DNA of 64,000 bases from positions 25,021 through 89,020 of the IMG/VR virus record IMGVR_UViG_3300032931_000905; one strand, written 5' to 3'. The translations under genes were made by a program, and so were the position numbers. Shown here in pieces: positions 34,692 to 41,184 of this stretch (within the stretch, counting starts at the first letter, position 1; every line of letters begins with the position of its first letter). The notes under the pieces were generated by a model, which ran no database searches, was not told the origin of the DNA, and saw nothing but the letters and a program-made list of their open reading frames with translations. Source of the DNA: a virus.

Positions 34692-35603
34692 TCAGGCTCC
34701 TACCGCAACTGTTACCCGCGAGGCCAATGCTTTTGCCTTCGCTTTTTCGTCTGCTTTCTTTGCAGCTAAATCAGCGAGAAACGACTTTGCAAGATCAGAA
34801 ATATATTCAACTGGTTGAAACCTCTCACCAGGCTTTTCCGAATCCCTCATTTCTTGCAGCCCCTCCATGCTATTCTTTCCGATTTCCAGAATGCACGGTG
34901 TGTAAATTTGACAATACGAAGGACCCAGTTCCCTAGCAACCATGATCGAGTTTTTGATATGCCTTTCAACTAAACTGGGCTTGCTGCAAGTGAACTTGGC
35001 GATATATTGACAGCCAGATTCACGAGCGATCTCAGGCAGACGAACTTTATCAAACAACTTTCCTACAGGCGCCATCTTCGCCACAAAGCCTTTTTGCATC
35101 AGACCAGATTCCTGGCCACCGGTGTTCGCATACAATTCATTGTCGAAGCAAATCGTCGTGAACTTCTCTTGACGGAACCAGGCTTGCAAGGTCATATCGA
35201 GGCCGATATCCACGGTAGCCCCATCGCCTGCGAGGACGACCACATCTTTTGTCTTGTTGGGGAATCGAACAGAGAGGGCGCGCTTGAGGCCTGAGGCAAT
35301 GGCGTTTTGATTACCGAAGAGTGAGTGGATGTTATGGACGGCGACCATTGGAAATACCAGACTGGTACACCCTGTGGAACCGACCATGACCGTATCTTCT
35401 GGGTTAGGGAGCGAGGCGAGGATATACCTGAAGGCCATGGACTCTGGGCACCCGGCGCAGAGGGAATGGGATTCGATCAATTCCTTCTTGTTGCCAATGT
35501 CCTTCCAACCGCGGTCTTCCTTGCCATAGGTGGCATTGGAGACCAGTTCTTTGTATTCTGGGGGCATGATGTCGAAGAGATCGGGGGAAATGGTAGGAAT
35601 CAT
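34692..35603 (-). CDS. 2-oxoacid (pyruvate/2-oxoglutarate):ferredoxin oxidoreductase beta subunit
   Basis: CAGC, STGC, TPP motif GDG...DN.LYANTGGQ.S, YTPC; resembles (from memory) five-subunit Por/For beta subunits of Nitrospirota/Aquificota. Confidence 0.9.
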   Translation of the reverse strand: MIPTISPDLFDIMPPEYKELVSNATYGKEDRGWKDIGNKKELIESHSLCAGCPESMAFRYILASLPNPEDTVMVGSTGCTSLVFPMVAVHNIHSLFGNQNAIASGLKRALSVRFPNKTKDVVVLAGDGATVDIGLDMTLQAWFRQEKFTTICFDNELYANTGGQESGLMQKGFVAKMAPVGKLFDKVRLPEIARESGCQYIAKFTCSKPSLVERHIKNSIMVARELGPSYCQIYTPCILEIGKNSMEGLQEMRDSEKPGERFQPVEYISDLAKSFLADLAAKKADEKAKAKALASRVTVAVGA

Positions 35604-35650
35604 TGGTCAAATCTCCTGGTGACGGGAGTTGCATGGTGTATTTAGGGGTA

Positions 35651-35724
35651 TGGTCGACCCTACAGGTTACGCTCCTGTCTCACCGCAATGTCAATGCGGT
35701 ATTCTGCTAATGAACTAAGGGTCG
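35651..35724 (-). tRNA. tRNA-Val(GAC)
   Basis: CCGCA-TTGACAT-TGCGG, CCA encoded. Confidence 0.85.
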
Positions 35725-35727
35725 TTG

Positions 35728-35803
35728 TGGTCTGCCTGGAGGGATTTGAGCCCCCATCCTCCCGGTTCGAAGCCGAGTAGTCTTCCAGTTGACGTACAGG
35801 CAG
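35728..35803 (-). tRNA. tRNA-Arg(TCG)
   Basis: CTCGG-CTTCGAA-CCGGG, CCA. Confidence 0.85.
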
Positions 35804-35862
35804 TCTAGATCAAAAAATCTTTCCATGCGTAGATTACACGGTCTATTCTACGCAAACCTTAT

Positions 35863-35937
35863 TGGTGCCACGGGTGGGATTCTAACCCACGTTGTCCCGC
35901 TTAGGAGGCAGGTGCCTGTACACTAGGCTACCGCGGC
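35863..35937 (-). tRNA. tRNA-Arg(CCT)
   Basis: CCTGC-CTCCTAA-GCGGG, CCA. Confidence 0.85.
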
Positions 35938-35941
35938 GTTA

Positions 35942-36017
35942 TGGACTCGCTGGTGGGATTCTCACCCACAACCTTCCAGGTAGAAACTGGAAATGCAAAT
36001 AATTACACCTCAGCGAG
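35942..36017 (-). tRNA. tRNA-Arg(TCT)
   Basis: TCCAG-TTTCTAC-CTGGA, CCA; atypical D/T loops. Confidence 0.75.
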
Positions 36018-36022
36018 ATATT

Positions 36023-36097
36023 TGGTGCTCCCAGAGAGTATCGATCTCTCTTTTCCTGGTTGAGAACCAGGCGAACTAGCCAGTATTCGATGGGAGC
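36023..36097 (-). tRNA. tRNA-Glu(CTC)
   Basis: CCTGG-TTCTCAA-CCAGG, CCA. Confidence 0.85.
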
Positions 36098-36507
36098 GTA
36101 TTATGCGTCGGCCAATAATATGGCAGGTCCGTTGGCTCGACCCAATGAAACTGCCCGTAATACTTTGGGTCTTTTCTCAATAAGTTACTTCGGTGTGCGC
36201 TATGAAATTGCTCAGAGTTGTGCCAAGGTGGATAGACAACAGGGCACTCAACGACATATAAGGGCATGTTATTGTTATACCCTCGACTTATCCATTCCTC
36301 GATGCAGGTATTCACATACAATTTCAGCGCATGTTCATACCCCTTCCACATCAACACCGCAGGATGATTTTTCCATCCTTGCTTTGCAGACGGATTCAAC
36401 AACACATTCAAAATCTGCATTCCTTCGACTCGTTGTTTTCCTAACCGACGATAATCTAAGGCTTGCACAGATTTCTTAAAAGAGGGGTAGGGCAAAAATG
36501 TTTGCAT
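36076..36507 (-). CDS. pyrimidine-dimer DNA glycosylase-like (MSMEG_6728 family)
   Basis: MQTFLPY..F..S...LD.RRLGKQRVE, HPAV.MW.G, HRSNLLRKDP. Confidence 0.85.
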   Translation of the reverse strand: MQTFLPYPSFKKSVQALDYRRLGKQRVEGMQILNVLLNPSAKQGWKNHPAVLMWKGYEHALKLYVNTCIEEWISRGYNNNMPLYVVECPVVYPPWHNSEQFHSAHRSNLLRKDPKYYGQFHWVEPTDLPYYWPTHNTLPSNTG

Positions 36508-36555
36508 GAGAGATTATAGCACAGTATTCATGCCCTGTCAAGTGCTATTATAAAT

Positions 36556-36860
36556 TGGTGGAGATGCCGGGAATTGAACCCGGGTCCAAAAGCAACGTCA
36601 AAGTCAGATTTTCATGCTAGTCAATCTTACAACGCCCGCCAAAGGGATTGACACCTTCTACGGTCTTCTTGAGCGCACAACTTGCCTCCAAGAATGACGC
36701 TTCACCACCTACAGGAGCCTATCAGTGGGTCAACGGGCCGCGATTAAGCGGCCATTGCCAGTTCGTGTTCGACAATTCGGTTTTTCCAAGTATTAACGAG
36801 GTCCTGGTCCTCGGCATGTCCGTTCTTCTCTATACGCCTCTGTCGATACCTGTCATCCCC
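36556..36860 (-). ncRNA. ssrA: tmRNA
   Basis: 5' GGGGATGACAGGTATCGAC, 3' GGACCCGGGTTCAATTCCCGGCATCTCCACCA with G3-U; internal tag frame ...VEHELAMAA*. Confidence 0.92.
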
Positions 36861-36868
36861 TTTCATTG

Positions 36869-37069
36869 TTACCATGAGTCATAGTCTGTCAAATTACACA
36901 TGATACCGGTAGCCATATTTTCGACTTCAATGACCGTACCGATACCTGTCGGAGAAACATGAAACTCAAATGCCATGGGGCGTCCACCTGAGAGTTTCTT
37001 CTGTTTGCTCTGTTTGCGAATAAAGACTTCCAGGTTCTTCACTTCTTTTGCATTCAATTGAAACTTCAT
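36869..37069 (-). CDS. small hypothetical protein
   Basis: MKFQLN...PTGIG..V...T...LTDYDSW. Confidence 0.55.
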   Translation of the reverse strand: MKFQLNAKEVKNLEVFIRKQSKQKKLSGGRPMAFEFHVSPTGIGTVIEVENMATGIMCNLTDYDSW

Positions 37070-37083
37070 ACTATACTCCAAAA

Positions 37084-37168
37084 TGGCGGAGAGGTGAGTA
37101 GTCGAAACCCAACCTTTCGGTCCCACCCGCTTCAAACGGGGTTCAGTGCCCTGACTGATTACCTCTCC
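37084..37168 (-). tRNA. tRNA-Ser(TGA)
   Basis: Long variable arm, GCCA end. Confidence 0.8.
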
Positions 37169-37269
37169 TCAATATCCTAGAAGCCAGGTGGCCACGACAC
37201 CAATAGTCGCCGTAATCACAAAGGCTAAACCTAATGCTTTCCAATTGATCTGCATAGTATACCTCCAAA

Positions 37270-37357
37270 TGGCGGAAGAGACAGGATTTGAACCTGCGTG
37301 GCTTTGACACCGCATCCCTTTCCAAGGGAGCCCGATTGGCCTCTCTGGCACTCTTCC
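37270..37357 (-). tRNA. tRNA-Ser(GGA)
   Basis: Long variable arm, TTGGAAA loop, GCCA. Confidence 0.88.
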
Positions 37358-37367
37358 AAAAAACTTA

Positions 37368-37457
37368 TGGCGGAAGTGTGAGGACATGCTCCCCAGGGTA
37401 TCTAAGGCCCCAATCCGCTTTCGAGACGGTTCCGACACCTTGATCGGTTACACTTCC
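37368..37457 (-). tRNA. tRNA-Ser(CGA)
   Basis: CTCGAAA loop, long V arm, aberrant T loop. Confidence 0.78.
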
Positions 37458-37460
37458 ATA

Positions 37461-37547
37461 TGGCGGAAGAGGGAGGACTCGAACCCCACGGTGTGACCCG
37501 CAATCCGGTTAGCACCCGGTTCAGCTACCCTGCACTGGTCCTCTTCC
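37461..37547 (-). tRNA. tRNA-Ser(GCT)
   Basis: GTGCTAA loop, long V arm, GCCA. Confidence 0.82.
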
Positions 37548-37556
37548 ATCTAAAAT

Positions 37557-37841
37557 TGAGGAGCGCCCAACCATTGTCACATACACCCCATCCCTACCAT
37601 GCACCGCCTCATCCAATCAGTGTGCTGCGTAGGTGTGAAGGATTGTGTATTTCCCTTCACCCGTCAGAATCGGCGTTCGCTATGGATTAACAACGCCACG
37701 ATTCTGTAAAACATTTTACCCCAGTATCCAGATTAGACCGTCGATCAAACGGCCGCTGTTGTCCTTCGTCCGCTGTGGTAAATGCCTTAGGTTCGTATGT
37801 CGGTCTCGCCTGAGAGAAAGCCTTGCGGCCTACGCTCCTCA
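37557..37841 (-). ncRNA. unassigned ~285-nt structured RNA
   Basis: Ends pair (TGAGGAGCG/CGCTCCTCA); several internal hairpins; fills the gap between two tRNAs. Confidence 0.6.
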
Positions 37842-37844
37842 TTA

Positions 37845-37921
37845 TGGTGTCCCTGGGTGGACTTGAACCACCGATTTCAGACTTCGCAGGTCTGCGTCTT
37901 TTCCATCTGGACCACAGGGAC
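37845..37921 (-). tRNA. tRNA-Arg(GCG)
   Basis: CAGAC-CTGCGAA-GTCTG, CCA. Confidence 0.85.
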
Positions 37922-37935
37922 ATATTTCTGGCACA

Positions 37936-38010
37936 TGGTGAACGGTGCTGGTACTGCCCCAGCTTAGTCTTCCTTGTAAGGGAAGTGCATATCTTTCCTG
38001 CCCACCGTCC
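37936..38010 (-). tRNA. tRNA-Val(TAC)
   Basis: CTTCC-CTTACAA-GGAAG, CCA. Confidence 0.8.
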
Positions 38011-38018
38011 GTAACGTA

Positions 38019-38093
38019 TGGAGCCCTCAACCGGACTTGCGCCGGTCTATCCACCTTACCAAGGTGGCGAATCGCTATCTATTCTTTGAGGGC
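38019..38093 (-). tRNA. tRNA-Thr(GGT)
   Basis: CCACC-TTGGTAA-GGTGG, CCA. Confidence 0.85.
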
Positions 38094-38115
38094 ATATTTA
38101 TTCGTATGGGAGCAT

Positions 38116-38192
38116 TGGTGCCGAAGGAGGGATTCGAACCCTCACTGTGCTGCTTTTGAGACAGCCGCCTCCTGCCGTTGGGCTACTTCGGC
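38116..38192 (-). tRNA. tRNA-Leu(CAA), short variable loop
   Basis: GCTGT-CTCAAAA-GCAGC, CCA. Confidence 0.88.
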
Positions 38193-38197
38193 ATAAT

Positions 38198-38274
38198 TGG
38201 TGCTGGCGAGAGGAATCGAACCTCCACTTGTCCAGATTTTAAGTTTGGTGACTCTGCCTTTGGTCTACGCCAGC
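38198..38274 (-). tRNA. tRNA-Leu(TAA), short variable loop
   Basis: CTTAAAA loop, CCA. Confidence 0.85.
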
Positions 38275-38279
38275 ATACA

Positions 38280-38354
38280 TGGAGCCCCGTACCGGATGTG
38301 CGCCGGTTTCTGCGGTGTACGAAACCGCTGAATCACTATCAATTCTTACAGGGC
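38280..38354 (-). tRNA. tRNA-Thr(CGT)
   Basis: GCGGT-TTCGTAC-ACCGC, CCA. Confidence 0.82.
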
Positions 38355-38356
38355 AT

Positions 38357-38385
38357 AGTATAACACGACCCCCGATTATTGTCAA
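38357..38385 (-). promoter_or_regulatory. sigma70 promoter inside the tRNA island
   Basis: TTGACA-N17-TATACT immediately upstream of tRNA-Thr(CGT). Confidence 0.75.
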
Positions 38386-38488
38386 GTACAAAAGTGTTCC
38401 TGCTCCTTCTAGCCTTCTAGGGTCCCCTCATACCAGGATTGGGGTAGCGGATCGTTGCCGCCTCGGGTCGTGATAAGTTATACCAGAA

Positions 38489-38711
38489 TTAGACTCGGGC
38501 GTCCAGCGCGGCGGTCACTTCCTGCACCCCTGCCAATGTGGCGTCCAAGGCGGCTGGTGCCACTAATCCTGCTTGACCCGCGGTCAAGGCATCAACTTGG
38601 GTCTGCAAGGTCTGCAAGGCGGCCAACTTCACGGCGTCACGGGCGGCTTCTGCCACCTGTGCGGCCTTCAAATCTGCAACGGCACTTTCTAATTCTGCAA
38701 CTGTAGCCATG
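38489..38711 (-). CDS. small Ala-rich coiled-coil protein
   Basis: GAGGAG SD before MATVAELE; late promoter TATAAATA at ~38858. Confidence 0.55.
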
Positions 38712-38870
38712 TGTGTGTCTCCTCGTTGAATAAGTTGTTTCACTAACCGATATAACTCCTCGATGGAATGCTCGTCACCACCCATACAAAAATCGTGTAC
38801 CGACTTCAACCCCTCAAACGTTTCATCATGTTGCATAACGCACCCTCCTTCTAGGAGTATTTATACGCAT

Positions 38871-40549: not shown

Positions 40550-40833
40550 TAGGGTAACTTAATCAGCCTTTAGGCCTTGCTGAAGGAAACGCGCATTTCC
40601 CGTCTGGACTTACTTTGGTGGCCAGACTCTCGTTACCACTTGCTCGTCAAAAATTTGGGGTGCCTTGGTCCTCAGTTATTCCCCGGCAGGGAGGACTCCG
40701 CGAATTGCCAGGCCAGATGTTCCCAGATTCAGCACCCCTTGGGAACCCACGAAATATGCCGGGGGAAGATTTCACGTTCGTACCAACTTCTTCGGATTTT
40801 GAATAACGCACCATATCTATGCACGTTACCCCA
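40550..40833 (-). ncRNA. unassigned ~280-nt structured, probably pseudoknotted RNA
   Basis: Terminal GGGTAAC/GTTACCC; internal CCCCGGCA/TGCCGGGG, GTTCCCA/TGGGAAC, GGGGTGC/GCACCCC, GTCCTC/GAGGAC, GTCTGG/CCAGAC. Confidence 0.6.
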
Positions 40834-40926
40834 GTCCGTTGGTGTTCCGACCCGACTCTCTGCCTCTGATCTTCTGAGAGGACTTAAAATGACCGGCGCT
40901 TCTGATCGTGGTACCGGGCTTCCACT

Positions 40927-41184
40927 TTAGACCATACTTAACTGGACACTAAAACCACACCATGTTCCTGCAAGCCCAACAGCCGGATCTTTTTCTCGGA
41001 TTCGTTCCAGTTCAGTGATGGCGGCTCTCACGGCATCATTGACCTTCGTAAAATCTCCTACCCCGTTCACTATCGCGGCCCTAGACGTAAAAAACGAAAT
41101 CCCATTGATTATGACCCTGAACCGCTGAAACGTCTCAAACTCTTTCACAGCTTGTTTCCTCTGTTGTGTTTTCTCAATCATCAT
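40927..41184 (-). CDS. hypothetical early protein
   Basis: ATG just downstream of a TTGACT-N17-TATACT promoter (41190-41218). Confidence 0.6.
   Translation of the reverse strand: MMIEKTQQRKQAVKEFETFQRFRVIINGISFFTSRAAIVNGVGDFTKVNDAVRAAITELERIREKDPAVGLAGTWCGFSVQLSMV

What the first reader, a model, noticed from the sequence alone, without database searches (positions are those of the whole stretch)
37557..37841. ~285-nt multibranched RNA exactly filling a tRNA-tRNA spacer
Seen: ends pair via TGAGGAGCG/CGCTCCTCA. Internal elements include GGCC-GCAA-GGCT (GNRA loop), GGCCGT/ACGGTC, CAGAATCG-GGCGTT/AACGCC-GATTCTG and GTGAAGG/CCTTCAC. GCGTAGG/CCTACGC partly competes with the terminal helix. It starts ~3 nt after the CCA of tRNA-Arg(GCG) and ends ~9 nt before tRNA-Ser(GCT), so tRNA processing would release it. 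No family recognised.
Basis: partly seen in the sequence, partly recalled or inferred. Interest (0 to 1): 0.7.

Follow-up and report, generated by a model that had tools for sequence, protein, structure and literature searches.

The report
Folded non-coding RNA between phage tRNAs
A 285-base stretch between two tRNA genes of an uncultured large phage looks like a real folded non-coding RNA gene of unknown function, kept almost unchanged in two related phages, and it adds one more example to the little-understood RNAs that phages hide inside their tRNA operons.

Summary
On the minus strand, 37557-37841 lies 3 nt after the CCA of tRNA-Arg(GCG) and 9 nt before tRNA-Ser(GCT). The fold is more stable than shuffles (z -3.1 to -3.7). 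None of 47 background windows fell below -2.44.

It matches no Rfam family, has stops in all six frames and occurs once in its own 89-kb viral record.

Two homologues turned up, both in metagenome contigs and both directly after tRNA-Arg(GCG). They are 93.7% and 96.1% identical with no indels. The nearby tmRNA is 78% identical and ordinary spacers 68-89%. Two base pairs changed on both sides and stayed paired, in the terminal helix and the GNRA hairpin.

The element is absent from the next-nearest complete relative and from every other collection scanned.

Best reading: a lineage-restricted structured RNA, co-transcribed with the tRNAs and freed by tRNA processing; its function is unknown. With three near-identical copies, a cis-acting spacer or a recently shared filler cannot be excluded.

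This scan has noted analogous, not homologous, RNAs in other phage tRNA arrays. No look-alike of this sequence was on record.

The parts
37557..37841 (-). The 285-nt RNA element (position 1 = 37841, position 285 = 37557).
   Evidence: Homologues are L105 3986-4270 and L106 307-591. Covariance model R1 scores the three copies at 344-355 bits.
37832..37840 (-). 5' strand of the terminal helix P1 (positions 2-10). It pairs with 37558-37566.
   Evidence: Pairing probability is 0.97-1.0. Pair 3:283 is A-U in the window and G-C in L105 and L106.
37558..37566 (-). 3' strand of the terminal helix P1 (positions 276-284).
   Evidence: Same evidence as the 5' strand.
37818..37831 (-). P2 hairpin with a GCAA (GNRA) tetraloop (positions 11-24).
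   Evidence: Pairing probability is 0.93-0.98. Pair 11:24 changes from A-U to G-C, and pair 12:23 from G-U to A-U, in L105. The same changes weaken the competing GCGTAGG/CCTACGC helix.
37804..37817 (-). P3 small hairpin (positions 25-38).
   Evidence: It is in the MFE and RNAalifold folds. The stem is invariant and the loop carries one substitution.
37707..37791 (-). Central domain (positions 51-135) of uncertain fold. It contains the GGCCG/CGGTC hairpin, whose apical loop (positions 93-98, 37744-37749) is rewritten in the relatives.
   Evidence: Five of six loop positions differ between the window and L105/L106 while the stem is kept. Substitutions at 61, 71, 93 and 94 break the window's MFE pairs. 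The relatives fold in a shifted register.
37665..37706 (-). P6 long hairpin (positions 136-177).
   Evidence: Pairing probability is mostly 0.95-1.0. It is invariant in the three copies, so there is no covariation evidence.
37635..37660 (-). P7 hairpin with a 12-nt loop (positions 182-207).
   Evidence: Pairing probability is 0.96-1.0. It is invariant.
37593..37633 (-). P8 irregular stem-loop (positions 209-249).
   Evidence: It is in the MFE and consensus folds. C236U turns an A-C mismatch of the window into A-U in both relatives.
37845..37921 (-). Upstream tRNA-Arg(GCG). Its 3' maturation defines the 5' end of the released RNA.
   Evidence: Called by ARAGORN and by Rfam at 60.5 bits. It precedes the element by 3 nt in all three copies.
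37461..37548 (-). Downstream tRNA-Ser(GCT). RNase P cleavage at its 5' end would define the 3' end of the released RNA.
   Evidence: It is 95% identical to the ARAGORN-called tRNA-Ser(gct) of L082. It gives a sub-threshold tRNA-Sec hit.
37549..37556 (-). U-rich single-stranded linker after P1.
   Evidence: A run of four U follows P1 in all three copies, while the rest of the linker differs. Its role as a nuclease entry site is inference.
38357..38385 (-). Predicted sigma-70-type promoter of the tRNA operon that contains the element.
   Evidence: It matches 11 of 12 consensus positions and has an extended TG. The next minus-strand promoter is at 36892-36865, and no minus-strand terminator-like site lies between them. 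The promoter block is 89-95% conserved in L105 and L106.

Best explanation
The element is a discrete, lineage-restricted gene for a structured non-coding RNA of about 285 nt, embedded in a phage tRNA operon.

Proposed course of events:
1. It is transcribed from the promoter at 38385-38357 together with six upstream tRNAs and four downstream tRNA-Ser genes.
2. It is cut out as a by-product of tRNA maturation: 3'-end processing of tRNA-Arg(GCG) three bases upstream, and RNase P cleavage at the 5' end of the next tRNA.
3. The U-rich tail is trimmed back to the terminal helix.
4. The 9-10-bp terminal helix, stacked on a GNRA hairpin, seals both ends and would make the RNA long-lived.
5. It then most likely acts in trans as a protein-binding or scaffold RNA during infection.

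Shown: position, fold stability, conservation in three phage variants, two compensatory pairs, absence of coding potential, absence from known families. Inferred: transcription, processing, stability, action in trans. The molecular target is unknown.
For: Fold:
- z is -3.1 to -3.7 on the tRNA strand, against a minimum of -2.44 in 47 background windows and -1.95 in 9 other array spacers.
- The sense strand folds better than the antisense.
- The consensus fold has 8 G-U pairs, which would be A-C mismatches on the other strand.

Conservation:
- Two homologues sit directly after tRNA-Arg(GCG).
- Identity is 93.7% (L105) and 96.1% (L106) with zero gaps over 285 nt.
- In the same contigs tRNA-Arg(GCG) of L106 is 84.4%, tmRNA 77.7%, ordinary spacers 67.6% and 89.1%, and an ORF 81%.

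Substitution pattern:
- Compensatory changes occur at 3:283 and 11:24, and a G-U to A-U change at 12:23.
- Random placement of the same substitutions gives two or more compensatory pairs in 0.7% of trials for L105, and one or more in 7% for L106.
- Five of the 18 variable columns cluster in one apical loop whose stem is kept.
- No substitution touches the four most probable hairpin stems.

Context:
- All six frames carry 2-5 stops, and the three overlapping ORFs have no Pfam hit below E 0.07.
- The operon has a promoter upstream and no terminator-like site before the element.
- The other gaps between Thr(CGT) and Arg(GCG) are filled by non-canonical tRNAs. This is my reading of alignments A2 and A3, with Rfam tRNA hits at the matching places of L105 and L106. 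The element is therefore the one long non-tRNA piece of the operon.
Against: - Only three copies exist and they are 94-97% alike, so covariation rests on two pairs. One of them is a single shared event.
- The column-shuffle control is weak: 53 of 500 shuffles reach the observed score.
- For L106, substitutions break as many predicted pairs as chance would (5 against 6.1 expected, p 0.32).
- The adjacent promoter block (89-95%) and both tRNA-Leu genes (100%) are equally well conserved. The high identity could reflect a recently exchanged block in a mosaic array rather than selection on the element.
- The nearest complete relative (176 kb) lacks it altogether. There tRNA-Arg(GCG) is followed within 5 nt by tRNA-Lys.
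- There is no expression data, no partner gene, and no complementarity to other window transcripts beyond 13 nt.
Confidence: 0.5

Rival explanations
1. It is a cis-acting processing spacer. The folded block has no function of its own after excision. It insulates the folding of the unusual flanking tRNAs, or brings the 3' end of tRNA-Arg and the 5' end of tRNA-Ser together for ordered cleavage. This resembles the leader-trailer stalks of rRNA operons. It is then degraded.
For: - It sits inside a tRNA operon with very short linkers on the 5' side (3 nt in all three copies).
- The terminal helix juxtaposes the two tRNA ends and is the best-supported helix.
- The tRNAs of this array are non-canonical, and ARAGORN misses several of them.
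Against: - Other tRNA pairs in the same operon are only 5-8 nt apart and need no such spacer.
- The nearest relative joins tRNA-Arg(GCG) directly to another tRNA.
- In L106 about 100 nt of unrelated sequence separates the element from the next tRNA, so the juxtaposition is not conserved.
- A mere insulator would not need 285 nt kept at 94-97% without indels.
Confidence: 0.2
2. It is a neutral filler or rearrangement scar. The sequence arrived when the array was rearranged, perhaps through the homing endonucleases in the array. It folds well by chance and looks conserved only because the three contigs share this block by recent descent or recombination.
For: - The element lies exactly where gene order differs from L082. 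There Arg(GCG) is followed by Lys(CTT), and Ser(GCT) is preceded by Cys.
- The array is a mosaic: identities in neighbouring segments range from 45% to 100%.
- The flanking promoter block is about as conserved as the element.
- GIY-YIG and HNH endonuclease genes lie in the array.
- No homologue was found anywhere else.
Against: - The fold z-score lies outside all 47 background windows and all 9 other spacers.
- Two compensatory double changes have a probability of 0.007 under random placement.
- Substitutions avoid the strong stems and cluster in one loop.
- There are no indels in 285 nt, whereas true spacers nearby carry 16 gaps in 213 nt.
Confidence: 0.2
3. It is a remnant or an active copy of a mobile or self-processing RNA element: an intron-like element, a ribozyme, or a MITE-like element with terminal inverted repeats.
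For: - It has a perfect 9-nt terminal inverted repeat.
- It is present or absent as a unit between relatives.
Against: - It occurs once in its own record.
- Three exact scans of 185,579 prokaryote species genomes gave nothing real. The single hit (L108) gave no match to covariance model R1, so it is taken as a chance match.
- No group I intron, group II intron or small-ribozyme family matches at E up to 10.
- It is not inserted in a gene, and no target-site duplication is visible at the ends.
- The own record has no reverse transcriptase.
Confidence: 0.05
4. It is protein-coding: a small gene on either strand, such as the 73-codon antisense frame 37645-37866.
For: One antisense frame stays open for 67 codons in all three copies.
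Against: - Every frame has at least 2 stops within the element.
- The three ORFs all run into the flanking tRNA genes.
- There is no Pfam match; the best E is 0.07.
- All neighbouring genes are on the other strand.
- By my count, substitutions show no clear third-position excess: 6 of 13 in that frame.
Confidence: 0.02

Closest known systems
Phage T4 RNAC and RNAD (also called species 1 and 2 RNAs)
   Same: They are small stable RNAs of a large tailed phage, still of unknown function (PMC9697503, passages read). That they lie in the T4 tRNA region and are cut from the tRNA precursor is my recollection, not a call. Here too, an RNA sits between tRNA genes and would be freed by tRNA processing.
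   Different: The present RNA is about twice as long. It shows no sequence similarity to any of 50,697 phage records, T4 included (blastn with a 601-nt query). It is known from three uncultured contigs only, and its expression is untested.
GOLLD and ROOL large ornate RNAs (in Rfam)
   Same: They are large multibranched RNAs of unknown function, often next to tRNA genes and in prophages (PMC5737381, passages). A GOLLD gene lies inside a 32-tRNA cluster (PMC6582537, passages).
   Different: ROOL averages 581 nt and GOLLD is larger; this element is 285 nt. Neither Rfam model matches it at E up to 10. Those families span phyla, whereas this one is confined to one phage lineage.
Leader-trailer processing stalks of bacterial rRNA operons
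   Same: A long-range helix formed by sequences flanking a structured RNA inside a polycistronic stable-RNA transcript. This comparison is from general knowledge, not from a call.
   Different: The helix here has 9-10 bp, too short for a typical RNase III site. What it encloses is not a known RNA.
Structured RNAs noted by this scan in other phage tRNA arrays (notes e1-5318426, e1-5582326, e1-6123864)
   Same: They are non-tRNA structured RNAs between phage tRNA genes, some closed by a terminal stem (and for the same window at 40550-40833).
   Different: There is no sequence look-alike of this element in the scan's index. Model R1 finds nothing else in the window. Those notes are unchecked AI notes and I did not test them.

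Membership tests
Any Rfam 15 family (4227 models) | A covariance-model match at the gathering score, or at least a suggestive E-value. | tested here: not met
   There is no match inside 37557-37841 at gathering or at E up to 10 in a 781-nt search. None falls at the homologous places of L105 and L106 at E up to 0.01.
tRNA or tRNA pseudogenes (RF00005) | A cloverleaf with acceptor stem, anticodon arm, T arm and an encoded CCA, as in the other tRNAs of this array. | tested here: not met
   ARAGORN and Rfam tRNA give nothing in the element. By inspection, no internal CCA is preceded by an acceptor-like strand. blastn against the tRNA-rich loci found nothing.
Group I intron (RF00028) | Insertion within a gene, and a P1-P9 core that matches the model. 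| tested here: not met
   It lies between two complete tRNA genes. No Intron_gpI match appears at E up to 10.
Bacterial RNase P RNA | Conserved regions forming the P4 helix, colinear, and matching the Rfam type A or type B models. | tested here: not met
   No RNase P model matches at E up to 10. The short resemblances I noticed by eye to recalled consensus motifs are not colinear, and one of them is the strand of a local hairpin. The motifs come from memory.
Y RNA / YrlA (RF02553) | A match to the YrlA model and a Ro60/Rsr (TROVE) partner. | tested here: not met
   There is no YrlA hit in the element. No TROVE domain is in the 89-kb record, which is only 53% complete. A sub-threshold YrlA hit (37.1 bits against a threshold of 69) lies elsewhere in L106.
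Retron or DRT non-coding RNA | An adjacent reverse transcriptase gene. | tested here: not met
   There is no RVT_1 match in the own record. The neighbours are tRNA genes.
MITE-like mobile element | Terminal inverted repeats, several copies, and a target-site duplication. | tested here: not met
   The inverted repeat is present, but there is a single copy. No copies exist elsewhere, and no duplication is visible at the ends.
Stable RNAs processed out of phage tRNA operons (T4 RNAC/RNAD kind) | Location within a tRNA transcription unit. | tested here: met
   tRNAs lie on both sides on the same strand. A promoter lies upstream, and no terminator-like site lies between.
Stable RNAs processed out of phage tRNA operons (T4 RNAC/RNAD kind) | Accumulation as a discrete stable RNA during infection. 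| not testable with these tools
   There is no expression data for this uncultured phage.
Stable RNAs processed out of phage tRNA operons (T4 RNAC/RNAD kind) | Sequence or structural homology to the T4 RNAs. | tested here: not met
   blastn of 37400-38000 found no match in 50,697 phage records. A structural comparison with the T4 RNAs was not done.

The most novel reading that the evidence does not exclude
The element founds a new class of mid-sized ornate phage RNA with a biochemical job of its own in tRNA or translation control. Examples would be a ribozyme, or a decoy that engages a host tRNA-cutting, tRNA-repair or tRNA-modifying enzyme. It would work alongside the phage's non-canonical tRNA set, its tmRNA and its RtcB ligase. 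That job would explain why it is conserved more tightly than the tmRNA next to it.
Probability: 0.1. Interest if true: 0.7.

Novelty: new variant of a known kind. Interest (0 to 1): 0.4.

Why it matters
Phage tRNA arrays are usually annotated as tRNAs plus junk spacers. Even the two extra RNAs of the T4 tRNA region still have no known function decades after their discovery. If this element is a stable RNA, it is another, larger and unrelated member of that neglected class. It sits in a phage whose tRNAs are themselves unusual and which carries its own tmRNA and RtcB ligase. It would give a defined 285-nt target for asking what such RNAs do. Its narrow distribution (three contigs) and the lack of a cultured host limit its immediate value.

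Tried and rejected
Known families. Rfam at gathering and at E up to 10 gave nothing in the element. By eye I considered RNase P RNA, an 11-nt tetraloop receptor, a hammerhead core, CsrB-like GGA repeats and a T-box. None was colinear, enriched or conserved, and the motifs were recalled, so I dropped them.

Homologue search that failed:
- blastn against 50,697 phage records.
- blastn and nhmmer against 88 loci fetched through the neighbouring denV-like and TPP-enzyme genes.
- Whole-record BLAST of 3 relatives.
- Whole-record BLAST of 49 of the 50 records asked for; one was not held. Three records had matches at E up to 1, all 15-23 nt long, which I read as chance.
- Covariance model R1 on 5 records, and with filters off on the L082 array, where the best score was 6 bits.
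- Exact-pattern scans of viral contigs. One search gave one 19-mer chance hit, L090. One search gave six hits. Searches gave none.
- Exact-pattern scans of prokaryote genomes. One search gave one hit, L108, which gave no R1 match and which I take as a chance match. Searches gave none.
- The tRNA-Ser(GCT) anchor pattern found only the L082 record in viral contigs and nothing in metagenomes.

Rejected hits:
- L104 and L107 share only the 20-mer.
- L102 and L103 score 9.6 bits with R1. They were selected by an exact 17-mer, lie inside a 183-codon ORF and have no tRNAs nearby.

Other dead ends:
- A second marker protein (tail protein) found only two short related contigs.
- Cultured phages are no closer than 26% identity to that protein.
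- A search for antisense targets in the window found nothing beyond 13 nt.
- No TROVE and no reverse transcriptase is in the own record.
- The scan's own index holds no look-alike.

Literature:
- The catalogue of about 10,000 candidate viral RNAs (PMC10690425, passages read) holds IMG/VR motifs of 29-151 nt, each seen in at least three IMG/VR regions. My scans found this element in IMG/VR only in its own record, so it is unlikely to be listed.
- No search of mine for an RNA of this description in phage tRNA clusters found one.

Full report
**Context.** The window is the last 64 kb of an 89-kb IMG/VR viral record estimated to be 53% complete.
- It encodes baseplate and tail proteins of the T4-like kind, a ribonucleotide reductase, an ATP-dependent DNA ligase and an RtcB RNA ligase.
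- No cultured phage is closer than 26% identity in a conserved tail protein.
- Between about 35650 and 44790, all on the minus strand, lie 25 tRNA genes and a tmRNA called by ARAGORN, plus further tRNAs seen only by Rfam.
- The same stretch holds GIY-YIG and HNH homing-endonuclease genes and a denV-like gene.

**The observation.**
- The finding's coordinates are exact. tRNA-Arg(GCG) ends with its encoded CCA at 37845, and the element runs from 37841 down to 37557.
- A tRNA-Ser(GCT) starts nine bases later. ARAGORN misses it in the window, but it is 95% identical to a called tRNA-Ser(gct) in a relative.
The alternative GCGTAGG/CCTACGC helix has probability zero.
- The fold (-100.1 kcal/mol) is 3.1 to 3.7 standard deviations better than dinucleotide shuffles in three runs.
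- None of 47 background windows of the same length went below -2.44. None of nine other array spacers went below -1.95.
- The antisense strand folds less well, at -2.2 to -2.5. The consensus fold holds eight G-U pairs. Both point to the tRNA strand as the functional one.
- A perfect 9-nt inverted repeat is common by chance: 18 pairs lie in 9.6 kb. The terminal helix needed other support.

**What it is not.**
- No Rfam family matches, even at E up to 10 in a 781-nt search. None matches at the homologous sites of the relatives.
- All six frames have two to five stops. The three ORFs that overlap the element run into the flanking tRNAs and have no Pfam match.
- It is a single copy in its record.
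- The record has no reverse transcriptase and no Ro60/TROVE protein.

**Relatives without it.**
- The neighbouring TPP-enzyme gene led to eight related viral contigs, of which only L082 carries the tRNA array. L082 lies in a 176-kb record rated 100% complete.
- Most tRNAs and the tRNA-Ser block are recognisably conserved there.
- In that record tRNA-Arg(GCG) is followed within 5 nt by tRNA-Lys(CTT), and tRNA-Ser(GCT) is preceded by tRNA-Cys.
- BLAST and covariance-model searches of the whole record, and of the array with filters off, find nothing.
- The element therefore lies exactly at a point where gene order differs between the two phages.

**Relatives with it.**
- After several failed anchors, an exact 20-mer from the long hairpin found four metagenome contigs. 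Two share only the 20-mer.
- The other two, L105 and L106 (5.5 kb each), carry the same tRNA array. The whole element sits three bases after tRNA-Arg(GCG) in each.

Identity to the window, by segment:

| Segment | vs L105 | vs L106 |
|---|---|---|
| Element (285 nt, no gaps) | 93.7% | 96.1% |
| Two tRNA-Leu genes | 100% | 100% |
| Promoter block | 89.2% | 93.8% |
| tRNA-Arg(GCG) | 100% | 84.4% |
| tRNA-Ser(GCT) | 94.3% | 45.6% (a different allele) |
| Spacer 37169-37269 | 89.1% | not measured |
| tmRNA | 77.7% | not measured |
| Spacer 36861-37083 | 67.6%, 16 gaps | not measured |
| Small ORF at 40927-41184 | 81% | 81% |

- The element is thus among the best-kept pieces of a mosaic array.
- The well-kept promoter block next to it warns that a recently shared segment could give the same picture.

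**Substitution pattern.** Eighteen columns vary.
- Pair 3:283 in the terminal helix is A-U in the window and G-C in both relatives.
- Pair 11:24 in the GNRA hairpin is A-U in the window and L106, and G-C in L105. Next to it, 12:23 goes from G-U to A-U.
- Five variable columns fall in the apical loop of the GGCCG/CGGTC hairpin, which is rewritten while its stem is kept.
- Other changes fall in a loop, a junction, the last base, or repair an A-C mismatch (C236U).
- Placing the same substitutions at random on the window's own predicted fold gives two or more compensatory pairs in 0.7% of 200,000 trials for L105. It gives one or more in 7% for L106.
- L105 breaks 5 pairs where 8.7 are expected (p 0.023). 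L106 breaks 5 where 6.1 are expected (p 0.32).
- The column-shuffle control on the consensus fold is weak: 53 of 500 shuffles reach the observed score.
- The breaks concentrate in positions 51-135, where the relatives fold in a shifted register. That interior is unresolved.
- The long hairpin, the 12-nt-loop hairpin and most of P8 never vary, so they are neither supported nor contradicted.

**Transcription and release.**
- A near-consensus promoter (11 of 12, with TG) lies at 38385-38357. The next one lies at 36892-36865, before the tmRNA.
- No terminator-like site on the minus strand lies between them.
- The gaps between that promoter and the element are filled by tRNAs, several of them non-canonical. 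ARAGORN does not call these in the window, but they are readable as cloverleaves in alignments A2 and A3. Rfam calls tRNAs at the matching sites of L105 and L106.
- The element is therefore the only long non-tRNA stretch of the operon.
- Release by 3' maturation of tRNA-Arg and RNase P cleavage of the next tRNA follows from the established pathway of polycistronic tRNA processing. It is inference here.
- A run of four U directly after the terminal helix is kept in all three copies.
- The distance to the next tRNA is not kept: 9, 17 and about 100 nt.

**Comparison with known things.**
- The kind is known. T4 makes two small RNAs, RNAC and RNAD, of still unknown function (PMC9697503, passages). 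Their position in the tRNA region is recalled.
- GOLLD and ROOL are often next to tRNAs and in prophages (PMC5737381, passages; PMC6582537, passages).
- The present RNA shares neither sequence nor model with any of them.
- A published catalogue of candidate viral RNAs covers motifs of 29-151 nt seen in at least three IMG/VR regions (PMC10690425, passages). That makes it unlikely to contain this RNA. Its supplements were not seen.
- Earlier notes of this scan describe analogous RNAs in other phage tRNA arrays, and one at 40550-40833 of this window. None resembles this sequence.

**Verdict.**
- The feature is real, non-coding, strongly folded at its ends and in three hairpins, and conserved as a unit in three phage variants.
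- The evidence for selection on two helices is limited but non-trivial.
- I rate a discrete processed RNA gene at about 0.5, a cis-acting spacer at 0.2, a recently shared neutral filler at 0.2, and a mobile or ribozyme remnant or a coding frame at 0.05 and 0.02.
- It is a new family within a known kind, of moderate interest. Its function cannot be inferred from what is available.

Noticed in passing
window 37925-38097, 38275-38344 and 37366-37458 (minus strand): Stretches that ARAGORN leaves as spacers read as non-canonical tRNAs with unusual T and D loops and an encoded CCA. By hand they are Thr(GGT) at about 38025-38097, a Val(TAC)-like one at about 37925-38024, Thr(CGT) at about 38275-38344 and Ser(CGA) at about 37366-37458. 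Several show compensatory stem changes against L082, L105 and L106. Rfam or ARAGORN calls tRNAs at some of the matching sites of the relatives.
   Followed up: partly
L106 3955-4066 (minus), roughly matching window 40830-40940: A sub-threshold match to the Y-RNA-like family YrlA (37.1 bits against a gathering score of 69, E 2.8e-5) lies in the relative's tRNA array. The own record has RtcB but no TROVE/Ro60 domain.
   Followed up: no
window 38489-38836 (minus): A 115-codon ORF between tRNA-Pro(CGG) and the operon promoter is absent from L105 and L106. There the promoter block follows tRNA-Pro within a few bases. It looks like an insertion specific to this phage.
   Followed up: no
window 35650-38480 against L082, L105 and L106: The tRNA array is a mosaic. 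Adjacent tRNA genes differ from 45% to 100% in identity between close relatives, as if single tRNA cassettes were exchanged. Gene order differs from L082 at several points. Homing-endonuclease genes sit in the array.
   Followed up: partly
L106 206-306 (minus): About 95-100 nt of unassigned sequence lies between the element and a different tRNA-Ser(GCT) allele. It has no counterpart in the window or L105.
   Followed up: no
window 34692-35603 (minus): A 303-residue protein with a thiamine-pyrophosphate-binding domain (PF02775, E 4.4e-16) lies directly downstream of the tRNA array. It is 72-81% identical in eight viral contigs, of which only one has the array next to it.
   Followed up: no
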